Source: the human T2T-CHM13v2.0 reference genome, Homo sapiens. Taken from it: 64,000 bases of DNA. Position numbers and translations under genes: made by a program. The notes below the pieces were generated by a model. The model had not been told where the DNA came from. It was given only the letters and a program-made list of their open reading frames with translations, and searched no databases. Shown in pieces: positions 4,874-44,609 of this stretch. Within the stretch, counting starts at the first letter, position 1; each line of letters begins with the position of its first letter. The DNA is taken from the NCBI RefSeq assembly GCF_009914755.1, contig NC_060939.1; one strand, 5' to 3'.

Positions 4874-5874
4874 TGAGAGGTGACAGTGTGTTCGCAGCCC
4901 TCACTCGCTCTCTGCGCCCACTCTGGCCTCGCTTGAGGAGCCCTTCAGCCCCCAGCTGCACTGTGGGAGCCCCTCTCTGGGCTGGCCGAGGCCGGAGCCG
5001 GCTCCCTCTGCTTGCGGAGAGGTGTGGCGGAAGAGGCGCGGGTGGGAACGGGGGCTGTGCCCGGCGCTGGCGGGCCAGCGCGAGTTCCGGGTGGGCACGG
5101 GCTGGGCGGGCCCCGCACTTGGAGCCGCTGGCCGGTGACACTGGCCCCAGGCAGTGAGGGGCTTAGCACCCGGACCAGCAGCTGCGGAGGGTGTCCCGGG
5201 ACCCCCAGCACTACCGGCTCTCCTGCGCCGCGCTTGAATTCTTGCCGGGCCTTAGCCGCCTACCCACGGGACAGCGCTTGGGACCTGCAGCCCGCCATGC
5301 CCAAGCCCCCAGACCCCGCATGGGCTTCCGCGTGGCCCCAGCCTCCCCAACGGGCGCCACCCCGTGCTCTGCGGCCCCGGGTCCCATCGACCACCCAAGG
5401 GCTGAGGAGTGCGCGTGCACCGCGCTGGAGTGGCAAGCAGCTCCACCCGCGGCCCCGGCGCGGAATCCACTAGGCGAAGCCAGCTGGGCTCCTGAGTCAG
5501 GTGAGGACTTGGAAAACTTTTTTTTTTTTTTTTTGAGACTGAGGACTTGGAGAACTTTCATGTCTAGCTGGAAGATTGTATAGGCACCAGTCAGTGCTCT
5601 GTGTCTAGCTAATCCAGTGGGGACTTGGAGAACTTTTGTGTCTAGCTAAAGGAGGTAAATGCACCAATCAGCACTCTGTTTAGCTCAGGGATTTTAAACG
5701 CACCAATCAGCGGGACCACGAACCCACCCGAAGGAAGAAACTCCAGACGTATCTGAACATCTGAAGGCACAAACTCTGGACACAGCATCTTTAAGAACTG
5801 TAGCACTCACCGCGAGGGTCTGCGGTTTCATCCTTGAAGTCAGCCAGACCAAGAACCCACCAATTCCGGACACA
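4874..5874 (+). mobile_element. Solo ERV9 LTR (LTR12D-like), internally deleted
   Basis: Starts tgagaggtgacag, ends ccaattccggacaca; GC-rich U3 and tctagct/ccaatcag repeats; flanks gcgg/gagg are an imperfect 4-bp TSD. Confidence 0.93.
5518..5539 (-). mobile_element. Extremely 5'-truncated Alu-like retroposition (GTCTC + A17)
   Basis: T17-gagac between direct repeats tgaggacttggaaaacttt (5502-5520) and tgaggacttggagaacttt (5540-5558). Confidence 0.7.
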
Positions 5875-9258: not shown

Positions 9259-10057
<799 letters not shown>

Positions 10058-20889: not shown

Positions 20890-21170
20890 AGTAGTCACAT
20901 GTGTCAGGGACTGTTCCAAGCACCTTCAACCTATCTGCACATGTCATTCTCATAACAATCTCAGAACAAGTGCTATCAATTATGCTTGTTTTCCTAATAA
21001 GAAAACTGAGTCATAGGTTAAATACTAATAGTATGCCAAGATCTTACAACTAGGTAAGTTAGAGTAAGATGGAGTTAATTAGAGTTAGGCTTAGTTGGGG
21101 CTGGATAGGGTTAGTAAGTGTCAAACTCAAGCAGTCTGACCCAGATCCGTTGCCCTTAACTACTCTCAGC
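20890..21170 (-). mobile_element. MIR fragment
   Basis: ataagaaaactgagtcataggttaa...aactcaagcagtctgac...cttaactact. Confidence 0.65.
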
Positions 21171-21231
21171 CACATGCTGGTTAAGGATGTGGTTTACGAA
21201 GACTTCCCTGTCCCTTCTGTTTTGATAATAT

Positions 21232-21475
21232 AACATTAATAATAGCTAACAGATTTAATCATGCACCAGGAACTGTATTAAACATTTAACTGTTTATCTT
21301 ATGTAATTCTTATAACTGTTGTATAAAACATGCCAACTTATTAACCCCGTGATATATATGAGAAAACTGAGATACAGAAGATTGAAGTCCGTACTGAAAC
21401 TCACACAGCTAGTAAGAGTTAATTCTGGAATATGAATCTAGATCTGACTCCAAAAACAGTTGTCACAACTACTTA
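21232..21475 (-). mobile_element. MIR fragment
   Basis: aataatagctaac...tgagaaaactgagatacagaag...cacacagctagtaag. Confidence 0.7.
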
Positions 21476-22349
21476 TTCTGTGTAATCATAGCCTTTGGAA
21501 ATTTGTTAAATAAATTACAGATGAAAATCCCAGATCAGATCTTGTATTTCATGCTTTTCATTTTCTTCCTTTGCCAAGGAAGACTGTGGAAAAATATTGT
21601 TCCTGAATCCCTGTGCTTTTGAGAGCTAAATAGGTGTACCTATGATTCATCTACAACATTCATTATGACCTTTAAAAATAGCTCCTTTCATTCACTTCTT
21701 TTAAAAAAATGTTCTAAATAAACAAAAATTATACATGGATGAATTTTTTTTCCTCAAACACTAATAAAGCTCAATTGCCCTATTTATATAGCATTTTTCC
21801 CTGTATTGATCAAGACAATTGAAAGAAAATACATATGCAAGAATGGCAGGTTATATATAATAATATACCAGTTGAATACTCCAAAAACTGAGAGTTAGAA
21901 ATACCACAATCAAAATGGAAGATTTGTACACTCAAATGATTTCTTACATTGTCATTTTTCTTTGAAGAAATAAGTTAAATATTTCTTTATGAACTATTTG
22001 CCACAAAAGGAATTGCTAATAAGTAAATGCTATACGTAATCTATCTCTTGAATTAAAATTTTAAACCATTTACAGTGAGTTTTCTCATTTTCTTTATGTT
22101 CTTGACAACCTTTTCTCCAAATCATTGAAAATGTTGGTATGGGGCTTTCAGATTCTGATTTTCCTGTCTGTAATAAGTGTATTACCATATGTCAATATTT
22201 CCCTATAAAGCACTATCATTAAGCAAAATATTAATATTTTTATCATCAACCAACTTTTCATTTTCAAGTATGTTTGGAAAGCTTTGAATACCAGTTGATT
22301 TTTCTTTTTATTTTTAAATTTCTTTTAAATTTATCTTCTAAAGGTTTAT

Positions 22350-25300
22350 AAATATTTTAATTTAAAAAATTGACAGATAACATTGTATTTTTTGTTGTGA
22401 GCCACATGATGTTTTGAAGTATTTATACATTATGGAATGGTTAAATCTATCCAAGTAACAAATACATACATCTTCCCAAACTCCCGTGTGCTCTAAATCC
22501 CCAGTCTCTGATAACTATAATTACACTCTGTTTCTATGAGATCAACTATTTTCGAGTCCACATATGAGAAAGATCATGCAGTATTTGTTTTTCTGTGCCT
22601 GGCGTATTATACTTAGCATAATGTCCTTCAAGTTCATCCATGTTGTTGCCAATGGCAGAATTTCATTATTTTTTGTTGTTGTTGAATTGTATTCCTTTGT
22701 GTGTATGTACCACATTTTCTTTATCCATTTATTCATCAATGGGCACTTGTGTTGTCTCTATATCTTGGCTATTGTGAATAGTACTGCAATAAACACGGGA
22801 AGGTGGATATCTCTTTAATGTACAGATTTCATTTCCTTTGGATATATACTCAATAATGGGGTAGTTGGATCATATGGTAGTTCTATTTTGAATTTTTTGA
22901 GGAACCTCCATACTGTATTTCATAGCAACCGTATCATTTTACATTACAATCAACAGTGCATTTTACATTACAATAAACAATTCTAAGTTCTCCACATCCT
23001 CAGCAATACTTGTGTTGTTTTCCATTTTGTTTTGTTTTCATAATGGTCATGCTAACAGGTATAAGGTAAAATTTTCTTGTGGTTTTGATTTTTATTTCCC
23101 TAAGGACTAGTGATATTGAACATCTTTTTATATTCTCATTGGCCATTTGTGTATCTACTTTGGAAACTGTCTATTAAGTCTAGTGCTAATTTTTAAATTT
23201 GACTAATTGGTGTTTTTTGATGTTGAGTTATAGGAGTTTTTGCGTACTTGTGAGATTTATCCGTTATCAGATATATGGTTTGCAAATTTTTTCTCATTCT
23301 GTCGGTTGCCTTTTAACTCTGTTGATTGTTTTGCTTGCTGCACAGAAGTTTTCAAGTTTGGTGCTATCATTTATCTATTTGTGCCTTCTTGCTAGTGCTT
23401 TTGATGTGGTAACCAAGAAATCATTGCAAAATCCAATGTTACAAAACTTTTTTTTCAACTTTGTTTTTCCCTAGGAGTTTTATGGTTTCAGGTTTTGAGG
23501 CCTTTAATCCATTTTGAGATAAACGTTGAATATGGTGTAAGGTAGGGTTCAAATTCATTCTTCTGCAAGTGAGTTCTACTGCTTGAGAAGTATCACTTTA
23601 GTTCACACTAAATATTCCCCGAGTAAATATCTACTTTAATAGTACTATAGTTGTATTTAAAATAACATTAATTAATAAACACATTAAGAAACTAGACATG
23701 AACAAAAATATCTAGAGTTGACTTATCCTTTATAAACTCCATTTTCTTCTTGAAAACAGGCACAATACAATAAGCAATTGCATTTTCAATAACAAACTCA
23801 AGCATTACGAATATACGTTAACTTTCCTACAGCTATTTGTTGAAGAGACTATTCTTCTCCATTACAAAGCCTTAGCAGTTTGTCAAAGATCATTTCATTA
23901 TAAATGTTAACAGTTTTTGTAAAGCATTTTTTTCTGTTTTGTTTCATAGACCTATTGGTCTATCTTTATGCCATTACCATACTATATTGATTATAGTAGC
24001 TACGTAATATGTTTTGAAATTAGGAAATACGAGGGCTCCAGGTTTTTAAAATTTTTCTCAAGATTGTTTTGGCTATTTGGAGTCATTTTTTTTATTTCTG
24101 CAAAAATGTCATTGGGATTTTCACAGAGATTGCATTGAATCTGTAGATGACTTTGGGTACTATGTGCATTTTAAGAATATGAAGTCTTCCAATCCGTGAA
24201 AACAGGATGTCTTTCTATTTACTTATATTGTCTTTACTTTCTTTAGGCAATATTTTGTAGTTTTAGTGTACAGGTGCTTCACCTTCTAGGTTATAGTTTT
24301 TCCTAAGTATTTTTTCTTTTTGATACTATTATAAATGAATATTATTTTCTTTTCAGATTATTCATTGTTAATGTATGGAAATGTAATTGATTTTTGAATG
24401 GTGACTTGTATCCTCAACTTTGCTTAATACAGTGATGCCATTTGGTCCTGTGCTTTTCTTTGCGGGGGAATTTTTATTATTATTACTGATAAATTACTCG
24501 TTCGATCTCATTAGTTATAGATTTTTTATTTTTATCTCTTCATGATTCAGTCTTGGTTGGTTGTATGTTTCTATAAATGTATCCATTTATTCTATGTTAT
24601 TTAATTTGTTGGCCTACTATTGTTCATATAGTTGTCTCTTATGATCCCTTTTCTTTCTTTTGCATTGGTTGTAATGTTTCCTCTTTTATTTCTAACTTTT
24701 GCTAACTGGGTCTCTACTTGTAGTCCAGCTAAAAATCTGCCAGTTTTGTTAAACTTTTCAAAGAACACACTTCATTTTATGGATTTTTAAATTGTTTTTC
24801 TATTCTTTGTTGAGTTTATTTCTGCTCTATTCTTCATTATTTCCTTCCTCTGCAAACTTCGGGTTTAGTGTTCTATATATGTCTGTTGGTCTAATTTGTT
24901 CATAGTGTTGTTCAAGTCGTCTATTTTCTTGTTGATCTCTCTGGTTGGCCTATCTCTTATTGAAAACAGGGTATTAAAATTTCCTACAATTATTATGTTG
25001 CTGTCTATATATCTCTCCATTTCTGTCAATGTTTGCTTCATATATATAAGTGCTCTGCTATTAGGTGCATATATAGTTACAATTGTTATATCTTCCTGGT
25101 GAATTAAACCTTTATAACAATATATTGTACTTCTTTGTCTCTTGTGATAGTTTTTGACTTAAGGCCTATTCTGTCTGATATAAGTATTGCCAACCCTCCT
25201 CTCTTTTGATTAAAATTTGCATGGAAAAATCTTCCATCTTCTTGTTTTCAACCTATGCATGTCTTTTTTATTTAAAGTCAGTCTTTTATAAACAACATAT

Positions 25301-27480
25301 AGTTGGATCTTGATTTTTTAAAAATTTATTTAGCTACACTGTGTCTTTTGATTGATGAGTTTAACCCATTTATACTTAATTACTGAATTATTATTTCCAT
25401 TTTGTTAATTGTCTTCTGTATGTATGGTATTAGTTTGGTCCCTCTTGTTCTCTCTTGCTGTCTTCCCTTGGGTTCATTGATCCTTTGTAGTGTCATGCTT
25501 TTATTTCTTTCTTAATTGATTTTGTTCATCTTCTATAAGTATCTTCTTTGTAGTTATCATGGGGATCCCATACAACATCGAGAATTGTAGCAATCTATTT
25601 TAAAATGAGAACCGCTTAGCTACAATTATATACAAAACTACTCTTTCAGATCTCCTTACCACATACTTGTTACTGATGTTACAAATTACATTTTAAAAAA
25701 TATTTTGTATTCATTAACATTGTTTTACAGTTGTAGTTATGCTTATATTGCTTACATTTTTTACTTGAATTAAAAGTGCTGTATGCAACACCATTACAAT
25801 ATTATAGAATTCTGTATTTATCTCTATATTTGGCTTTACCAGAGAGCTTTATGTTTTTCTGTGCTTTTATGTTGCTACATAGTGTCCTTTTTGTTCAACG
25901 CCAAGGACTGTCTTTGGTAGTTTTTATGTAGGTCTGGTAGTGATGAACTCCCTCCACTTTTGTTCATCTGGGAAGTTATTTCTTTTTGGTTTATGAAAGA
26001 TAGTTTTGACAGATACAGTTTTTATGTTTGGCTGCAATTTTTATTTATTTTTGCCTTTTGAATGTATCGTCCCACTCACTTCGGCCTCTAAAGTCTCTGC
26101 TAAAAAATCCACTGATAATCTTATGGCAGCTCCTTTCATGTGATGAGTTGCTTTTCTCTTACTAGTTTCAAGTCTCTCCTTTCACTTTTGTCAGTCTGAA
26201 TATAATGTGTCTTGATTTGTACCTATTTGGGTTTTTCTTAGTTAAAGTTATTTGAGCTTCTTGAATTTAATGTGGTCTGTTTTCTTCCTCACATTTCAGA
26301 TAATTTTGGCCATTATTTCTTCAAATAAACTCTCTGCTCTAATCTTTCTCTCTTCTCTTTCAGACTCTCACATAATGTGTATATTGGTCTGCTCGTGGGT
26401 GCTGGTACATCAATTAGACTTTCTTTACTTTTCTTCATTCTTTTTTCTTTTTATTATTATGACTTGATAATTTCAAATGACCTGTGTTAGAGTTTACTGA
26501 CTTTTTTTTTTTTTTTTGCTTTGTGAGATCTGCTGTTGATCTGCTGTAGTGAATTTTTCAATTCACCTATTTTATTTTCCAGCTCTAAAATTACTTCGCT
26601 TTTTCTCATGTAGTTTCTATCTCTGTACATATTCTCATTTTGCTCATTTGTGGTTTTTCTGATTTCATTTAGTTGTCTATCTGGCATTCTCTTGCAGCAC
26701 ACTGAGCTTCTGTAAAGCAATGATTTTGAATTCTTTTTTAGATAGTTTGTAAATATCAATTTCTTTAGAGTCAGTTTCTAGAGATTTAGTTTGTTCCGTT
26801 AATTGGGTCATGTTCTCCTGTTTCTTCATGTGTCTTCTTATTTTTTGTTGTAATTTTTTTATTTGAAAAAACAACTAACACTTCGAGTTTTTACAGACTG
26901 ATTTCATACAGGGGAATACCTTCATCAGTCAGCATGACTAGAGATTCAGAGGGCCTCTCAAACATGTTATGGAAATGCATTTTCTCTGAGCTTGTGCATG
27001 TAATTTCCAGATTAGAGAGATTTGCTGGTTTCTTTTTTAGGAGTTTGTGGGCTCTTGCTCTCTCTTGTGTCTGTCTGTGGTACTGCAGGTTCTCCAGAAC
27101 TATATGCCAAGCTCTCTTTTGTTCTTTGCAGTCCCCAGGCATTCAAACTATGACAGCTCCTCATCAGTGCCCTAAGTCACATGAGACAAAAATCAGTCCC
27201 TTAGGTAGCCTCTTAAAAAGCTAAAAAATTGGACATATATTCGATTCTTCTCTTTCCATCTCATTGTAAAAGTCATTAGCAGGATACTTTTTCCCAATTG
27301 TGGTGAGCTGTTTTGGCCTTTGTCTACAGTGTGACAAGTACTGGCACTTCTGGCACTGCAAGAAGCCACTGAACTCTCTTTTGTACTAAGTGGCTACCAG
27401 TTATCCAAAGTATTTTGGTTCTATATCAGTACTCTGAGTCAGGTGAAAAAAATACCAGTCTCTTGGACAACCTTCCAAAA
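22350..27480 (-). mobile_element. Long old L1MA-like element (3'UTR through ORF1/5' region, internally deleted)
   Basis: L1MA-type 3' end (ttgacagataa...catgatgttttgaagtat); ORF2-like WIKKMWYIHT peptide; ORF1-like RQLNEIRKT peptide. Confidence 0.88.
23571..23808 (+). repeat. Local duplicate of 27815-27991 + 32450-32509 inserted in the L1MA
   Basis: Colinear match of roughly 80-85% by eye; L1 sequence stops at ttctgcaagtg and resumes at ~23810. Confidence 0.9.
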
Positions 27481-27481
27481 A

Positions 27482-27482
<1 letters not shown>

Positions 27483-27515
<33 letters not shown>
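27483..27515 (+). repeat. (CA)n microsatellite
   Basis: Directly visible. Confidence 0.97.
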
Positions 27516-27519
<4 letters not shown>

Positions 27520-28005
27520 TCTATTCCTGTATTTTTTTCTTTAAGCTAAATTAGAAGATGATTAGTTGCTTCAGGTTACAATTTATATAGGAATATTTTA
27601 AATATTTTTAGAGAAATATATTCACTTCATTAATGGATTTGGAAATAGATTCCTGAAATAGAAACTTGAAAAAATACTACACATTTACTTATTTAAAAAA
27701 TCCATTTTATATTCTGCTTTGTTTTGAGAATGTAGTTTGAGTACAAACCAGATTATTTCTGTAAATATGGAGAAAATGTTCATCTTAGTGTATCAAATAT
27801 AGTGAAAGAAACCAGAATTCCACTGCTTCAGAAGTATCACTTAAGTTCACATTAAATATTTTTCTGAGGAAATATCCAGTTTAATAATGCTATAGTTATA
27901 TTTAAAATAACATCTTAATAAACATGATAAGGAACTAGAAGTGAACAAAAATATCCAGAGGTCACTTATTCTTTGCAACCTCGATTTTCTTTTTTTCTTT
28001 GTGTG

Positions 28006-28585
28006 TGTGTGAGAGACCAGAATTGTTTAAATACTCAAATCAATCTCCCCAAGCATTAGGGGAGCAGAGTTTTTAAGGATTACGTGGTGGATTGGGGGAA
28101 GCCGGTGAGCCGGGAGTGCTGATTGTTCAGGGATGAAATCTTAGGGAGTCAAAGCTGTCTTCTTGCGCTGAGTCAGTTCCTGGGTGGGAGCCACAAGATC
28201 AGATGAGCCAGTTTATTGATCTGGGAGGTGCCAGCTGATCCATCAAGTGCAGGCTCTGCCAAATATCTCAAGCACTGATCTTAGAAGCAGTTTAGGGAGG
28301 GTCAGAATCTTGTAGCCTCCAGCTGCATGACTCCTGAACTATAATTTCTAATCTTGTGGCTAATGTTAGTCCTACAAAGGCAATCTAGTCCCCAGGCAAG
28401 AAGGAAGTCTGCTTTGAGAAAGGACTCTAACCGTCTTTGTTTAAACTATAAACTATGTTTCTCCCGAAGTTAGTGCAGCCTATGCCCAGGAATGAACAAG
28501 GACAGTTTGGAGGTTAGAAGCGAGATGGAGTCAATTAAGTTAGATCTCTCACTGTCTCAGTCATCATTTTGCTATTGCGCTTTCG
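28006..28585 (-). mobile_element. LTR8 (ERV1/MER4 group) 3' LTR, U3-R only, U5 absent
   Basis: Minus strand matches recalled LTR8 (gcaaaatgatgactgagacagtgagagatctaac...ggggagattgatttgagta...ggtctctcaca) and stops at the poly(A) site, followed by an A-rich tail. Confidence 0.85.
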
Positions 28586-31500
28586 GTCCCTCCCTTTGGG
28601 TTTTATAACACCTTAATCTTTAGGTGTAGGCTATGAAGATGGGAAGAGGCTGTTGATCACTCTAGATTTTTCCTGCTTACAGGGGACATAGCGGGAATGG
28701 GAGTGAACCCCAAGGAGAGAAGAGTAGACCTGCTTCACAACTGTCTGAGTGTATTTATGCAGGCTTGGCTGGGCTTGCAAGGCTTGTGTGGTAAAAATAT
28801 ACTTTCATTTATGTTTCAGGATGATATTTAAGTAAACAGCATGTTTATAAGATAAATAACGAGTCCTAGGATGAGGACTACAATTCCCAATTTTAAAAGC
28901 AAAGATTTGAAAACATTAGTTTGGAGACTTCTAACCCACAATGAATTTAGAATTTAGTCTAAACTGCAGAAAAAACCTTAAGAACGGTTAACAACAGTGT
29001 ACTTCAGTTTTTCTTTTGAAGCATACTTTTGTCTCCCTCCAGTCCCCATTTTTATTAAAAACAAATCACAATAGAACTGATTTGTTTACAAAAGAAACTT
29101 TAGTCTTACTGTATTTGGCCTGATTATTTGCATAAAGTGCAGCAAGAATAATTATTTTTTACTTAGGTTTTTTAAATTGGCTTTGTTAGAACTCTGTTCC
29201 ATGAAGAATCTCAGATAACACTTATTAAAAGCCGAGCCCAGCCATGGGTCTGTACCCTCAAGTACCTATGAGTTGGGCAAATTCCTCTCCTCTTGAGGTC
29301 CCAAGGTAACTTGGGGTTCCTGGGCCTGTTAGAAAGTGACATTCTTTACTTACCACAGGTCAGGAACCTTGTACAGGTTCCTGTACAGGTATCTTGTACA
29401 GGTACTCTATGCGGACAAAGTATGAGGCCAGATGCCCCAATGGGCTTTAATTGGCTCTATAAGTCAACTTTGATTCTTTAAAGGAGGCATGCCATTCCAG
29501 TCAAAGCCTTGGTAAAATAACCAATTTCTCCAATTATATCCTGTTACAAAAGAAAGCAGATTCTTATTGCACTTATGCAATTAACTGTACTGCCATAAAT
29601 TGAGAATACTCACAAATAGTTTCCAAATTCTGGAGAAATCAGGTAGAGGGGAACAAATATGCTCCAAATTTTGTTCACAGGAGTATATTTTACTCACTTG
29701 TTAAAGTTGCAAATAGCTTTAAAGAAATAAGTTATCTTGACTCTGAAAACAAAAGGATCAGCAACGTTTAACACATCAGATCTCCATGAGACTCCTAGAA
29801 GTTTCATTTTTTCCTCTATTCAAATAGCACAATTTTTAAAGTTGTCTGAGACCTGCACTCACAGTCCTATATCTGATTATAAACTGCCTTTTGAAAAGGA
29901 TCAAAACAAGACAAAATGTCTGTGGATGACAAGTAAATAGCCCCTATTAAAACTACAGGTGACTAGGAATTTTGGTTACTTCTGTGGCATACAACAATTT
30001 TATATAACAATTATTATTAATAATGTACATTAAATCATATCAGAATTATAGAAGTTTCCCATAAATTTTGGAACACATACTAATAATATAATATTTATAC
30101 AAATACAGTCCAAAGAAAACCAAACACCATTCACTCTTCTATTTGAAAGTTTTCCCTCTCTTCTAATGTCACAATCTCCAGAGTTATTAGTCAGAATCCT
30201 GCATTTAAGAGCACCTGTTAAATTTTATAGCTGATTATAAAACCATCTTTTAAAGAGGATGAAAATGAGACAACAATTGTCTGTGAATGACAAAAACACT
30301 TTTAGGCCAGCTGCAGTTAAAGACATGGTTGACAAGTAAATTTTTTACCTCTGTGGCACACAGTCATTTAACATAATAATTATAATTATTACAGATAGAT
30401 AACATATACTAAGTCATATTAGAATTATAGGAGTTTTACTTAATTTCAGAACATACGCCTATAACACATTTACACAAATATAACCCAAAGAAAGCCAAAC
30501 ACCATTTCATATTTGGCAGTGCTTCCTGTATGATTTCTATACAAAATGAGCCAAATGTCATTTTTGGACTTTAGAGAACCTAATATCTAAAAGATTAGTC
30601 CAGAAAGAGACATACTTTATAATTTGATTTTGGAAAGTTTGTCAAATATCAAAGGTTTAAAACACTTGATATCACAAAATAGAATCCCAGGTTACCTTAA
30701 GTCATTCATTTTGGCCAAAATGATAACTCTAAATAAGCTTTAAAAAAGAAAACCTTTACTCTAGTAGAGGAGACTTAGCTTTCCAAGCAACATCCAATAA
30801 AGGTAGCATGAGGCTAAATTTGTCTTTTCTCTCTCCTCCTTTTTTTCCCTGCCATTTACCCATGGGAGAGAAAGCAAAACTCTTTCATTATCTTTTAATG
30901 TTACACAAAAATCATCTTCAAAAGAGAAAAACAAATTTCATGTTTGCATTAGTGCATCCTTAACGTAAAAGCTAGTTTTTTAAATAAAATTTTGTATCTC
31001 TGTCCAGTTTTAATTAGTTTGAACATAAGATTTCAATACACTTTTTAGATCCCTTTACAATTTTCCATCAAACAGCAGGTCAATTTTCTAAGAAAACCCT
31101 GTTTTTCGGACACATGGGCCCAGATTCTGGCCTTACAACATCATTATCTTAATGTTTTAATCTGCAGATAAAAGCTAAATAATTTCTTTTAAATTTTAGC
31201 CAATTTGTTTATACCCACAGAATTTTTTTATCAGATCAATCCTTTTTACAAATCCTTTTTACTTTGCTTAAACCTTCAGTTTTCTTCCGTTACTCTTTTA
31301 GGTTAAGACAATCTTTAAAACCCTCTGAACTAGACAAAATTACATTCCCTTTAACAAAAGCCATATTCCTATGCCTTCTTATAATCTTTTACCAAAAACA
31401 CATTCCCTACACACCTTGTTTGTAAAATTGTCTCTCCAGTGGTCTCAATTGCATGTTACAATGTTAACTCTTAGCAACTTTTATTTTTAGTGAAAAACCT

Positions 31501-32435
31501 GATAAGTAAGTGATTTTAATTATGTACCAGGGATGGAGCCTAGGAAATCAGACAGAAATGAAGATAAAGTCTGACTCTTTTTAGCATATCTAGAGGGGAT
31601 GGCTCTCCATATGTCCCCAGGCTTATCTATAATCTAATGCTCCAAAGTAGGTAAATCGAACAATTTTCAAAAGTCAAAGAAATAATTTGACCTTAAAGCA
31701 TTTAGCAAATCTGATCTCTGACCTTAATTTAGACCAAATGTCTACATTTTCAAGGCTTTTTATTTACCAATAATCTTTAAAAGTGTCTTTATTTCCAAAA
31801 GATTACTAAAGTCACGAGAACAAAAGGCATTAAAGTTTCTATTTTTGTGACAAAATATTTAAGTGCTTATCTTTCTAAGCCAATTAATCAGAGCTCTTAT
31901 AAATGCCACACACACACACAACACATACAGGTAGAAGATTTGGCATTTGCAAGATTTTTCATTTGCCAGTTTCTTAATTGGATCACTGGCTTCAGGGTGG
32001 AGCCCTTGGAGGAAGAGGGCCAGGAAAGCATTTCTGGGGCCAAATAAGCAGCAAATAAAGAGCTGAAGGCAAAGACAAACCCCCAGAGTTAAGTGCGCCA
32101 TTTTATACTGGATCCTGGATCCCCAAAAGGAGGGAAATATTACGGGAGAAGACAGTGTGGTGCTTTTACCGACGGTGCATTTCATAGCAAGGCAACCCAA
32201 AGCTAATCAGCCCATTTTGTAATTAGACCATCACCCATGGGAGTCTCATCTCTCAGTGGGGGGTGGGGATGTTTCCATATCTTCCAGGTGGTCAAGAGCA
32301 TGCTTCTCTGATCCAAGTGTGCAAAGAGTCAAGTGTCCCTTCATAACTACTATTAGGCATCCCCTATAGCATGTTTTCTACCTAGTTATTACACACCAAA
32401 GCTCTCATAATGAGAAGTAATTTTTGATACCCTAA
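28586..32435 (-). mobile_element. MER4-group ERV internal sequence, 5'-truncated, non-coding
   Basis: PPT aaagggaggga (28587-28597, minus) abuts the LTR; MER4-int-like AT-rich sequence; no 5' LTR or PBS at the distal end. Confidence 0.82.
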
Positions 32436-32944
32436 AACCTCTTTCTCTTCTAGAAAATAAGCACAATACAATAAGTAATTGCATTTTCAGTAACGAATTC
32501 AAGCATTACATATTTTTGTTGATTTGAAAACACTTTGGACAAGGGTGATGGGAGGGCAGTGGCCTAAAAGAACTAATGAGGAAGCAGGAACCAGGGAGAT
32601 GCCAAAAAAATTACTATCAGAAAGGATATTTGTTAAGTGACATCATAAACATGAAGTCAAACATATGCCATAGTGTGTAGATGACAATTCCAGGAAAATG
32701 TTAAGAATGTAAACAAACTTCATGGTAGAGTGGGAATTTCAGTACCACCATCATTAAACAATTTCAGGGGACACTAGTTCTGTGCAGTATAGTGTAAGTG
32801 TAGCCCTTTGTATCTGTACAACATGATGGCTCAAGCATAGTCCTATAAACAGATAGAATTTAGAGTAAGATTAGAAGCAGCAGGATCAACTAGGTGTCCT
32901 GGGGGTTGAGACAAATGCTAATGAGAACACCCGGGCGGAGGAGG

Positions 32945-33312
32945 TGATATGGTTTGGCTCTGTGTCCCAATCCAAATCTCATCTTGTAGCTCTCATAATT
33001 CCCATATGTTGTGGGAGGGACCCAGGGGGAGATGATTGAATCATGGGGGTGGGTCTTTCCTGTGCTGTTATCCTGATAGTGAACGGGTCTCATGAGATCT
33101 GATGGTTATAAAAATGGGAGTTTCCCTGCACAAGCTCTCTTTTTGCCTGTCACCATCCATGTAAGATGTGAATTGCTCCTCCTTGCCTTCTGCCATGATT
33201 GTGAGGCCTCCCCAGCCACGTGGAACTGTAAGTCCATTAAACCCTTTTTTTCTGTATAAATTACCCAGTCTTGGGTATGTCTTTATCAGCAGCATGAAAA
33301 TGGACTAATAAC
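32945..33312 (+). mobile_element. THE1C-like MaLR solo LTR
   Basis: tgatatggtttggctctgtgtccc...gcagcatgaaaatggactaata. Confidence 0.93.
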
Positions 33313-34117
33313 GGGTGGTATGGCAGATTGGGTGGTAATACACAGGTAAAAAATGGTTTGGATAGGGAATATAGAGAGACAGATGACTCTAAACCATCAT
33401 TGGCTCCTATGCAGTTTTGCTTTATTTGATTGTATCACAGTTCTGGATTTGGGTATAAGTCTTGAGAAGAGAATTGTAGAAATGCAAGTTGTTTCAAAAT
33501 GTGTCTAAATCCTATAGAAAAATGGGGACTCATCAATGGTTTTTGCATATAGAATTACCATGACAATACCATTATAGTAGAAAAACTATTCTATAATGTA
33601 GGATAAATTTCAATGTAACACTGAGGTGGAAATTTAGGAGTTCTTCTGTATATACAAGTTTCTTTTCTCATTAAAGATTATCTTTATAAGGGTTAATGTG
33701 TATAATCCTTAAGATTTTTCTTCTTCTACCATTAAATAATGTGTTAGTAATATCTAATGTTTCAGTGATTACAATTTGGAGGTTATTTAGAGACCAGAAA
33801 TGAGATGTTTAGGATCTGAAAGCAGTTAGTTTAAAGAAAAGGAACTGAACAACCAAGGATACTGAAATGAGAGTCAATAGGACTTGAGACTTTGAAGTTC
33901 TTAAGGACAGCTTAGAACAAATTAGAGGAATGACACTATTATCCCTAAAAATGGAAGTCATTGTTTGTGGGGTTGGGTATTGTAAATGAATCTGTTTAAT
34001 GGTGAGATTATGTGTTGTAAACACCTCTTCACTGTAAACTGTCATTGTTCTAGAATCTTTAGAATTTACAAAATCATGTTTTAGATCATTGTGAACAAAA
34101 TACTGCTTTTGGCATTT

Positions 34118-43337: not shown

Positions 43338-43373
43338 ACACACACACACACACACACACATATATACACATAT

Positions 43374-43428
<55 letters not shown>
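43338..43428. repeat. Compound (AC)n-(AT)-(GT)n alternating purine-pyrimidine tract
   Basis: Directly visible. Confidence 0.96.
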
Positions 43429-43504
43429 GCTGTGTCTTGAGCGATTTTAGTACCAAATCCTTGGTCTGGTCATCATGGCATTCATGCAGCATTTTGGTTT
43501 GAGT

Positions 43505-43538
43505 GACACACACACACCACACACACACACACACACAC
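43505..43538 (+). repeat. (CA)n microsatellite
   Basis: Directly visible. Confidence 0.93.
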
Positions 43539-44609
43539 AATTAATTTAAATATGGGTTGATATTGATAAGGAAAAAACAATGAAATAGGGGAAGTCAGAG
43601 ATGTAAACACACACTCACACTGTTTTAGTCTATTGTAATAATGAATTGAGTTCTCTATATCGATGCAAAAAAAGGTGATGAAATGATACAATGTTTGCAT
43701 CTTTCTCTTTTACAAGACAAACACCAAAATGAGATGAACTAAATTATTTTTTTCATGTGACTGAGTTGACTCTTATTAACCTATTTTGGGTCCGTTGTGG
43801 CTTTGTGTTCATAAAAATATTCATCATACTTATCTCCCTTTCCCTTGAACCCTCAGTAATTCTACTTCATAAATTCTTACTTTTGTATATTGGGTTTGCC
43901 TAAAGAAAAAATACTCTTGTTTCACCGTAGTTTTTAAAGATGTTTATCAATAATGTGTGACTTTCTGTGTTTCTGTTTTTTAACTTTTCTACCATTTTCT
44001 GTGAATAGAAACGTGTGAGTACTTGGAAGATAATGCAGTGGGTGTATATTTGCGAGAATAAAAACTGTGAATATTGTAGCAAGCAGTAAGTTGCTTCATC
44101 TAAGTGCAAATATTCTGCTCCTCACACACTCCACTTGGGCTGCTTTCCAGGATCTATCATTTAGGCTGTGGGCCACTCCAGGGCATGTGTCTTGCTGTCA
44201 CAATGCCTTACTACAAGTACATTTTACAGTGATTTTCAACAAGCTGAAGAGTGACATTATCACAGTGGGATTTCTGATCTTCACATTCCAGAGGGGATCT
44301 TCATCCAGGAGGTCAGTAAAGATGGAGTTTAAAGCAGTGTTTTAGCCACTATGTCTGCAAATTCAGGGAGGCAAACAGAGAGAGCTACAAGTCTCCAAAG
44401 GCGTTATTCATATCATTTTAAAAATTAGGTGCAGTAGTATGTTGTGCCTGTGAGTTTCTTCCTATATATTTTAAAGGATATATGTGGTTTCCCTGCATTA
44501 ATTCCTCTGTGACAAAACTGGAAAATAAAACAACATAACTGATATTTAATGTATATCCTCAAATAAAGAACAAGAAATGTGATAGACACACAAACAGATA
44601 GATAAACAG

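What the first reader, a model, noticed from the sequence alone, without database searches (positions are those of the whole stretch)
23571..23808. Local templated copy preserves the empty pre-insertion site of the neighbouring ERV retrocopy
Seen: the old L1MA is interrupted by ~240 bp of non-L1 DNA (gagttctactgcttgagaagtatcac...tcaagcattac). Its first ~180 bp match 27815-27991 (gaattccactgcttcagaagtatcac...). Its last ~60 bp match 32450-32509 (...gcacaatacaataagtaattgcattttc...aagcattac). These are the two flanks of the 4.4-kb ERV insert, joined without it. The copy has the junction once (aaactccattttcttcttgaaaac), which independently supports the TSD call. It is in the same orientation, 4.2 kb from the donor, with no poly(A) or TSD of its own, and the L1 resumes almost in register. 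Inference: a DNA-repair templated insertion (SDSA or template switch) made before the ERV landed. The order is L1MA, then duplication, then ERV retrocopy, and the copy acts as an in-cis fossil of the ancestral allele. Identity of roughly 80-85% by eye suggests an early-primate event.
Basis: partly seen in the sequence, partly recalled or inferred. Interest (0 to 1): 0.75.

Follow-up and report, generated by a model that had tools for sequence, protein, structure and literature searches.

The report
Repair-made local DNA copy inside L1
A 238-base piece of nearby unique DNA was copied into an old L1 element, most likely while a chromosome break was mended, and it still shows what its source looked like before a 4.4-kb retro-element split that source; this kind of event is already catalogued in the human genome.

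Summary
Window 23571-23808 (238 bp) interrupts an old L1. All 11 other L1 copies aligned run straight through this point. The window's L1 loses no bases, and the insert has no poly(A) and no flanking repeat longer than 2 nt.

The insert's first 181 bp match 27815-27994 (82%) and its last 75 bp match 32435-32509 (85%). These are the two flanks of a 4.4-kb insert, and 17-18 bp (23734-23751) match both flanks. A whole-genome search finds only these three places. The donor lies in otherwise unique DNA, so a dispersed repeat is not supported.

Substitution distances fit the proposed order. The L1 shows 0.29 pairwise, the copy versus its donor 0.16, and the 4.4-kb insert versus its relatives 0.12-0.16.

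The 4.4-kb insert is a 5'-truncated, U5-less, A-tailed copy of an LTR element with a 17-20 bp target duplication, which marks L1-type insertion.

The event fits a described class: the 'repair-mediated duplications' of Pace et al. 2009 (824 proximal cases in human). Paralogous 'related empty sites' are also an established idea. This is a valid but ordinary new member of that class.

No primate genomes were available here, so the order of events was not tested against orthologues.

The parts
22834..23570 (+). Upstream part of the old L1 (ORF2 3' region) that hosts the copy
   Evidence: It matches other L1 copies in the window and in the genome (query 1-323). Median K2P to 11 copies is 0.288. It ends at ...GCAAGTG, where 11 of 11 other copies continue GATATCC.
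23571..23808 (+). Acceptor: 238-bp copy of nearby unique DNA (repair-mediated duplication)
   Evidence: It is 82% identical to 27815-27994 and 85% to 32435-32509, and these are the only matches in 3.1 Gb. It has no poly(A) and no TSD longer than 2 nt. Rfam gave no match.
23734..23751 (+). Single copy of the target site (a 'related empty site') of the 4.4-kb retro-insert
   Evidence: It aligns to both 27978-27994 (14 of 17 identical) and 32435-32452 (13 of 18).
23809..24594 (+). Downstream part of the same L1, resuming in register
   Evidence: GAATATACGTT... aligns to GATATCCAGTT... of the other copies. Searches confirm the L1 match.
27815..27994 (+). Donor, left part (ends with the left TSD copy, about 27978-27994)
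   Evidence: The flank upstream of it, 27482-27814, has no other genome match apart from the (CA)n run at 27483-27517, which matches only the (CA)n stretch at 43338-43539 of the window.
27995..32434 (-). 4.4-kb 5'-truncated processed copy of an LTR-element transcript (sense on the minus strand), with a short A-rich tail at its left end in window coordinates
   Evidence: It belongs to a dispersed family, mostly 81-88% identical over pieces of 1 kb or more. It ends at the R end after an AATAAA-like signal, lacks U5 and has an A-rich tail. Copies L017 and L020 continue about 1 kb beyond its 5' end. No Pfam domain was found in 39 ORF pieces.
32435..32509 (+). Donor, right part (starts with the right TSD copy, about 32435-32452)
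   Evidence: The flank downstream of it, 32510-32936, has no other genome match. A high-copy, Alu-like repeat starts at about 32937.

Best explanation
A chromosome break inside an already resident L1 was mended by copying about 238 bp from unique DNA 4 kb downstream on the same chromosome, in the same orientation. [quoted passage not shown] A broken 3' end invades a nearby ectopic template, is extended, falls off, and is joined to the other end with little or no homology. Later, an L1-driven insertion put a 5'-truncated, polyadenylated copy of an LTR-element transcript into the middle of the donor and duplicated about 17-20 bp of target. The acceptor copy therefore keeps the donor's pre-insertion sequence with the target site present once. 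What is shown: the insertion into the L1, the donor-acceptor relation, uniqueness in the genome, the absence of retroposition marks on the 238-bp copy, and the long TSD and processed structure of the 4.4-kb insert. What is inferred: the repair pathway (SDSA rather than another templated or capture route) and the order of the last two events.
For: The L1 is interrupted cleanly, and 11 of 11 other copies lack the insert. The 238 bp are collinear with donor left part + donor right part, and removing one TSD copy gives 237 bp against 238 bp. There are only 3 places in the genome, from 3 of 3 candidates scored. The donor's flanks 27482-27814 and 32510-32936 have no other genome match apart from a (CA)n run at 27483-27517, so the donor is embedded in continuous single-copy DNA while the acceptor is an intrusion. 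That fixes the direction of copying. The copy has no poly(A), no TSD longer than 2 nt and no terminal inverted repeats. It fits the published class (PMC2671141; abstract and sections 6-7 read): a TE interrupted by 50 bp or more of DNA found at one other locus, donor within 5 kb in 824 cases, mean size 162 bp and maximum 619 bp, and none of 39 proximal cases inspected had poly(A/T). K2P distances: L1 versus 11 copies, median 0.288; copy versus donor 0.162 +/- 0.031 over 217 sites; 4.4-kb insert versus 5 relatives 0.116-0.158. This gives the expected order. The 4.4-kb insert carries L1-type marks: a TSD of about 17-20 bp, a target reading TTTTC/AAGAAG on the insert's sense strand, an A-rich tail, a 3' end at the R end without U5, and 5' truncation. 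A provirus of the same family, by contrast, has a 4-bp flanking repeat.
Against: The junctions are too old (about 8% change per lineage) to read repair signatures firmly. There is only a 2-nt GA ambiguity at the left junction and one extra A at the right. SDSA therefore cannot be separated from end-joining capture of a free DNA or cDNA fragment, or from replicative template switching. The distance for the duplication (0.081 +/- 0.015 per lineage) is not significantly larger than that for the retro-insert (about 0.06-0.08), so dating alone does not prove the order. No orthologous primate sequence could be examined. I did not find the locus in Table S1 of PMC2671141, so its membership in that catalogue is by features and not by listing.
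Confidence: 0.72

Rival explanations
1. A free fragment was captured by end joining. In this reading a 238-bp piece of DNA, or a cDNA made from an intronic transcript of the same locus (a class 2 'templated sequence insertion'), was ligated into a break in the L1 without strand invasion of the donor.
For: Class 2 templated insertions likewise have no TSD, no poly(A) and end-joining junctions (PMC5110952, abstract and passages). Donor and acceptor lie in the same intron of a + strand lncRNA gene, according to the hub's annotation. The junctions show at most 2 nt of homology.
Against: In the passages read such insertions are described as templated from distant genomic regions. Here the donor is only 4 kb away, which is the signature of the proximal class, where 824 of 1,136 duplicons were within 5 kb (PMC2671141 section 6). 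Nothing in the sequence speaks for an RNA step.
Confidence: 0.13
2. The retro-insert came first. The copy was made from a donor that already carried the 4.4-kb insert, and the copying polymerase (or a later deletion) jumped between the two identical 17-20 bp TSD copies and skipped the insert.
For: The two dates are not statistically separable. Chimeric acceptors built from two donors up to 3.4 kb apart are documented, 5 of the 20 chimeras in PMC2671141 section 6. This shows that template switches during such repair do occur.
Against: This reading needs an extra, precisely placed switch. The point estimates run the other way: 0.081 per lineage for the copy against about 0.06-0.08 for the insert. 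A later hit of a 238-bp target by one of the many retro-insertions of the last 40 Myr is the commoner event (my estimate, not computed).
Confidence: 0.05
3. Replicative template switching (FoSTeS/MMBIR type) at a stalled fork, rather than break repair, produced the dispersed 238-bp duplication.
For: It gives the same end product: a short, templated, nearby insertion with minimal junction homology. MMBIR-type templated insertions are described in the abstract of PMC8421209, which I saw only in the search listing.
Against: It cannot be told apart from SDSA in this sequence. The published survey of this exact configuration attributes it to SDSA.
Confidence: 0.07
4. Two independent insertions of a rare 238-bp mobile element.
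For: The unit has sharp ends at the acceptor.
Against: There are only two loci in 3.1 Gb, and 3 of 3 candidates are accounted for. There are no terminal inverted repeats, no TSD and no poly(A). The donor copy has no visible boundary within about 1 kb of unique DNA. Rfam gave no match.
Confidence: 0.02

Closest known systems
[quoted passage not shown]
   Same: A transposable element is interrupted by 50 bp or more of non-repeat DNA whose only other copy lies within 5 kb on the same chromosome. The size falls in the published range (238 bp; proximal class mean 162, maximum 619). There is no poly(A), and the junctions have little homology. The divergence (31 of 217 sites, 14.3%) lies in the upper range of the 'All primates' rows of Table S1 that I read (3.1-17.3%).
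   Different: The donor was later split by a 4.4-kb retro-insert, so the acceptor maps to two places 4.4 kb apart. I found no row for this region in Table S1. Prefix searches 9550-9567 found no chr15 row. The 'All primates' block in part 2 has no chr15 row between 88.4 and 99.7 Mb.
Related empty sites (RESs): paralogous sequences that lack a given TE insertion
   Same: A paralogue of the flanks, without the insert, shows the target site once and so proves the insertion and its TSD. The definition was seen in a passage of PMC4054914.
   Different: In the usual cases the paralogue comes from repeats or large duplications, mostly in plants. Here it was made by a 238-bp repair copy only 4 kb away on the same chromosome.
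Class 2 templated sequence insertions / TSIPs (Onozawa and Aplan 2016, PMC5110952)
   Same: A templated patch sits at a presumed break, with no TSD and no poly(A).
   Different: Those are described as coming from distant regions through RNA. This one is local and shows no sign of an RNA step.
HERV-W processed pseudogenes made by L1 (for the neighbouring 4.4-kb insert)
   Same: The copy is collinear with an LTR-element transcript. It ends at the R end without U5, has an A-rich tail and a long TSD, and is 5'-truncated.
   Different: It appears to be a different family. The U5 is about 100 nt, the LTR is 737 bp, there are about 2,000 first-look LTR candidates, and 69 ORF pieces gave no Pfam retroviral domain. 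The family name was not determined, and my recollection of HERV-W's own LTR layout comes from no call.
'Doublets', short local paired duplications (Thomas et al., seen only as cited in a passage of PMC2671141)
   Same: Short duplicated segments lie close together and are not explained by transposition.
   Different: According to that passage, those surveys dealt with shorter, near-identical pairs. I did not read the paper itself.

Membership tests
Repair-mediated duplication (Pace et al. 2009) | The acceptor interrupts one transposable element, whose two parts resume within +/-30 bp of the same consensus position | tested here: met
   11 of 11 other L1 copies are continuous across the site. 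The window resumes with no loss and at most 1-4 extra bases.
Repair-mediated duplication (Pace et al. 2009) | An insert of at least 50 bp that is not itself a repeat and has exactly one parental locus elsewhere | tested here: met
   the 238 bp have only one other locus in the genome. It is seen as two matches because a later insert splits it. The published pipeline's literal filter ('more than one other location') might have dropped it.
Repair-mediated duplication (Pace et al. 2009) | Donor on the same chromosome within 5 kb and more than 50 bp away (proximal class) | tested here: met
   There are 4,006 bp between the acceptor's end and the donor's start, and 4,244 bp from start to start.
Repair-mediated duplication (Pace et al. 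2009) | No poly(A/T) tract of 5 bp or more at an end of the insert, and no retroposition-type TSD | tested here: met
   the ends read GAGTTC... and ...CATTAC. Only a 2-nt GA could count as duplicated.
Repair-mediated duplication (Pace et al. 2009) | Junction signatures of break repair (microhomology of 2-9 nt, filler, or a small deletion) | tested here: inconclusive
   there is a GA ambiguity at the left junction, one extra A at the right, and ATAT two bases in from the junction in both the donor flank and the L1. The event is too old to be sure.
L1-mediated processed retrocopy (for the 4.4-kb insert) | A TSD much longer than the 4-6 bp made by a retroviral integrase | tested here: met
   About 17-20 bp are shown once in the empty-site copy and twice around the insert. 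A provirus of the same family has a 4-bp flanking repeat.
L1-mediated processed retrocopy (for the 4.4-kb insert) | A 3' end at the polyadenylation site (R end, no U5) followed by an A-rich tail | tested here: met
   the window copy and 6 others of the 24 sampled lack U5 and run into A-rich sequence, while 17 of 24 keep U5. The window's tail is short (about 11 nt, after a CA run).
Endogenous retrovirus (for the family of the 4.4-kb insert) | Paired LTRs with TG..CA ends and a short TSD | tested here: met
   one provirus has 737-bp LTRs that are 90% alike, TG..CA ends and a 4-bp flanking repeat.
Endogenous retrovirus (for the family of the 4.4-kb insert) | gag/pol/env coding remnants | tested here: not met
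   0 of 39 ORF pieces in the window copy and 0 of 30 in the 5' internal part of a provirus match a retroviral Pfam family. The element looks non-coding or non-autonomous.
DNA transposon / MITE (for the 238-bp unit) | Terminal inverted repeats, a fixed-length TSD and multiple copies | tested here: not met
   none of the three is present.

The most novel reading that the evidence does not exclude
The most novel point lies with the neighbour rather than the 238-bp copy. The empty-site copy gives direct proof, on the same chromosome, that the 4.4-kb LTR-element copy went in with a 17-20 bp target duplication. In a sample of 24 copies of that family, 7 have the processed form (no U5, A-rich tail). 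This points to a second LTR-element family that L1 mobilised repeatedly, older and apparently non-coding, whereas a 2017 review abstract calls HERV-W the sole HERV group mobilised this way. For the 238-bp copy itself, the boldest reading not excluded is an RNA-templated patch made from the locus's own intronic transcript.
Probability: 0.3. Interest if true: 0.5.

Novelty: new member of a known kind. Interest (0 to 1): 0.25.

Why it matters
The locus is a clean, self-documenting example of three layered events: an L1 insertion, a repair-made local duplication, and an L1-driven retro-insertion. The repair copy acts as an internal control for the later insertion's target site. It teaches nothing new about mechanism, because hundreds of such proximal repair duplications are catalogued in human. 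It does show that catalogues which demand a single parental match can miss cases whose donor was later split. It also gives a ready presence/absence marker set for primate phylogeny. The side observation, that processed L1-type copies occur in an LTR family other than HERV-W, may be worth a genome-wide count.

Tried and rejected
1. Dispersed repeat or mobile element. This is rejected: there are only 3 places genome-wide, and no inverted terminal repeats, TSD or poly(A).

2. Small-RNA pseudogene. Rfam gave no match at E <= 1 over 23450-23930.

3. Coding content.
- Of 97 stop-free ORF pieces of 40 aa or more from 21000-26600 and 27995-32440, none reached a Pfam cut-off.
- Two were sub-threshold chance hits: BPL_LplA_LipB at 16.2 bits (cut-off 21) and DUF5841 at 17.4 bits (cut-off 25).
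- Pfam therefore did not confirm even the L1. The L1 identity rests on DNA matches to other L1 copies. An L1 ORF1 and RT were seen only in a neighbouring element of another locus, which turned out to be unrelated to the LTR family.

4. Whole six-frame translation of the insert.

5. Counting U5-less LTR ends with a U5+R probe. This failed: all 40 scored hits were full-length LTR ends. I replaced it by fetching the ends of 23 internal-bearing copies.

7. Pavlicek et al. 2002 is not held. What I say of it is recalled, or comes from the reference list of PMC5537654.

8. Phrase searches such as 'chr15 955' do not work across table cells, so I used numeric prefixes.

9. I tried to name the tRNA primer site of the LTR family from memory, and dropped this as unreliable.
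Full report
**What is there**

Window 23571-23808 is 238 bp of AT-rich DNA (28% G+C) inside an old L1 on the + strand.

A genome search with 23250-24150 scored 40 of 6,122 first-look candidates and returned 64 matches. Other L1 copies match query 1-323 and 575/586-899. The only match to the middle, apart from the window itself, is the stretch at window 27815-27994.

I aligned the junction with 11 of those L1 copies. All 11 are continuous there (...GCATGTG GATATCC AGTTTTCCC...). The window reads ...GCAAGTG [238 bp] GAATATACGTT.... The L1 therefore loses nothing and resumes in register. The insert has no poly(A) or poly(T) end, and the only candidate for a flanking duplication is the dinucleotide GA.

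**The two matches**

- 23571-23751 aligns to 27815-27994 with 149 of 182 columns identical.
- 23734-23814 aligns to 32435-32513 with 68 of 81 columns identical.
- The repeat finder and an in-window BLAST give the same picture and no other partner.
- The whole-genome search with the 238 bp alone found 3 first-look candidates and scored all 3: the segment itself, the left flank (E 3.1e-41, 82%) and the right flank (E 5.1e-15, 85%).

The tool warns that it skips very common words, but the L1 flanks gave thousands of candidates under the same settings.

**Direction of copying**

The donor's surroundings have no other match in the genome: 27482-27814 on the left and 32510-32936 on the right.

- In one search the 6 weak non-self hits all fall in 27203-27481.
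- In one search all 39 non-self hits fall at 32937 onward and belong to a high-copy, Alu-like repeat.
- The one exception inside the left flank is a (CA)n run at 27483-27517, which matches only the (CA)n stretch at 43338-43539 of the window.

So the donor segment lies, with no visible boundary, inside about 1 kb of otherwise unique DNA, while the acceptor is an intrusion into a repeat whose relatives lack it. The copy went from 27815... into the L1.

**The empty site**

Positions 23734-23751 of the copy align to both the last 17 bp of the left flank (14 of 17 identical) and the first 18 bp of the right flank (13 of 18 identical). Left flank plus right flank minus one copy of this stretch gives 237 bp, against 238 bp in the acceptor. 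The acceptor therefore carries the donor as it was without the 4.4-kb insert, with the target site present once.

**What the 4.4-kb insert is**

It belongs to a dispersed family. One search scored 35 of 6,170 candidates and returned 100 matching pieces, mostly 81-88% identical over pieces of 1 kb or more.

- *Orientation and 3' end.* Its sense strand is the window's minus strand. Its 3' end lies about 20 nt after an AATAAA-like signal inside an LTR, followed by a CA run and a short A-rich tail, and then the TSD.
- *The family is an LTR element.* One provirus (G000:C12:14906816-14915242) has 737-bp LTRs that are 90% identical, TG..CA ends and a 4-bp flanking repeat.
- *The window copy lacks U5.* I sampled 24 copies that carry internal sequence and this LTR end: 23 taken rows with query start <= 19, plus the window. 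I dropped rows that started further in. Of the 24, 17 keep about 100 nt of U5 and 7 lack it and run into A-rich sequence. The window copy is one of the 7.
- *A full-length processed copy exists.* Copy L017 starts inside the 5' LTR at the presumed R start and has an 18-bp flanking repeat.
- *The window copy is 5'-truncated.* Two other copies continue about 1 kb beyond its 5' end.
- *Target motif.* On the insert's sense strand the empty site reads TTTTC/AAGAAG..., which resembles the L1 endonuclease target. The motif itself is recalled, and it is also quoted as 5'-TTTT/A in PMC5110952.
- *No retroviral coding domain was detected.* 0 of 39 ORF pieces in the window copy and 0 of 30 in the 5' internal part of a provirus matched one.

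The element looks non-coding, and I could not name its family.

**Relative ages**

Kimura two-parameter distances, substitutions only:

| Comparison | K2P distance |
|---|---|
| L1 flanks versus 11 other copies | median 0.288 |
| Copy versus donor, TSD excluded | 0.162 +/- 0.031 (217 sites; 22 transitions, 9 transversions) |
| 4.4-kb insert versus 5 relatives | 0.116-0.158 |
| Those 5 relatives among themselves | 0.096-0.161 |

Halving these gives about 0.14, 0.081 +/- 0.015 and about 0.06-0.08 per lineage. At 2.2e-9 substitutions per site per year (the rate used in PMC2671141), the duplication comes to roughly 37 Myr ago, with a wide error. 'Before or around the split from New World monkeys' is a fair reading. 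It was not tested on orthologues, because no primate genome is available here.

**Mechanism**

- A retroposed origin of the 238 bp is unlikely, because it has no tail and no TSD.
- A cut-and-paste element is unlikely, because it has no inverted ends, no TSD and only two loci.
- Rfam finds no RNA family.
- A large duplication followed by deletions would not leave the L1 in register.

What remains is a templated or captured patch at a break. The configuration is the one that Pace et al. 2009 searched for and attributed to synthesis-dependent strand annealing (PMC2671141; abstract, sections 6 and 7, and passages read):

- a TE interrupted by 50 bp or more of DNA that has one other copy;
- 824 of 1,136 such pairs within 5 kb of each other;
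- proximal inserts averaging 162 bp, with a maximum of 619 bp;
- none of the 39 proximal cases inspected carried a poly(A/T) tract;
- junctions with 2-9 nt of microhomology, filler or small deletions.

Here the junctions offer only a GA ambiguity and one extra A, which is too little and too old to choose between pathways. I hold the class assignment at about 0.7-0.8 and the specific SDSA route as the best guess within it.

**The main caveat on the 'fossil allele' reading**

If the retro-insert came first, a polymerase copying the donor could have switched between the two then-identical TSD copies and skipped the insert. The published set does contain two-donor chimeras (20 cases, 5 of them with the second donor 289-3,432 bp from the first). 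This reading needs an extra, exactly placed switch, and it runs against the point estimates of age. I give it about 0.05. Only orthologues can remove it.

**Is this locus already listed?**

- Numeric-prefix searches 9550-9567 over all four supplementary files found no chr15 row.
- The 'All primates' block of Table S1 that I read (part 2 of 15) has no chr15 row between 88.4 and 99.7 Mb.
- I did not read the other 14 parts line by line.

**Comparison with what is known, and verdict**

- The event is a new member of the repair-mediated duplication class.
- Using a paralogue without the insert as evidence for an insertion and its TSD is the established 'related empty site' idea (passage of PMC4054914).
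- Class 2 templated sequence insertions (PMC5110952) share the junction features but are described as distant and RNA-derived.

The finding is real and well read by the first stage, but it is ordinary in kind. I score interest at 0.25.

The more unusual item is the neighbour. Processed, L1-type copies make up 7 of 24 sampled copies of an LTR family that does not look like HERV-W. A review abstract calls HERV-W the sole HERV group mobilised by L1 (PMC5537654). My two literature searches on this turned up only HERV-W work. The sample is small and chosen from the best-scoring rows, so this is a lead and not a result.

Noticed in passing
window 27995-32434 (minus-strand sense); loci L017, L019-L021, L024/L025, L056-L078: The 4.4-kb insert's LTR family has two kinds of copies. 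Proviral ones keep U5 (17 of 24 sampled), and one of them has 737-bp LTRs and a 4-bp flanking repeat. Processed ones lack U5 and have A-rich tails (7 of 24, including the window), and the two checked have flanking repeats of about 17-20 bp. A review abstract (PMC5537654) calls HERV-W the sole HERV group mobilised by L1. The family was not named here.
   Followed up: partly
window 27995-32434 and L024/L025: No retroviral Pfam domain was found in 69 ORF pieces of this roughly 8.4-kb LTR element (39 from the window copy, 30 from a provirus's 5' internal part). It appears to be a non-coding, presumably non-autonomous element.
   Followed up: partly
window 29868-30131 and 30221-30506; L023 5075-5360 / 5413-5710: The LTR element carries an internal direct duplication of about 300 bp (68-73% alike). 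It is present in the window copy and in two other copies, so it is a family feature and not a local event.
   Followed up: no
window 27483-27517 and 43338-43539: (CA)n microsatellites. The first lies about 300 bp upstream of the donor. The retro-insert's 3' end also runs into a short CA run before its A-rich tail.
   Followed up: no
window about 32937-33313: A high-copy, Alu-like repeat (90-93% identical to many loci) begins about 430 bp downstream of the donor's right part.
   Followed up: no
PMC2671141 Table S1 / section 6: The published catalogue reports 5 'chimeric' acceptors whose two donors lie 289-3,432 bp apart. Some of these might be single donors later split by an insertion, as here. 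This was not checked.
   Followed up: no
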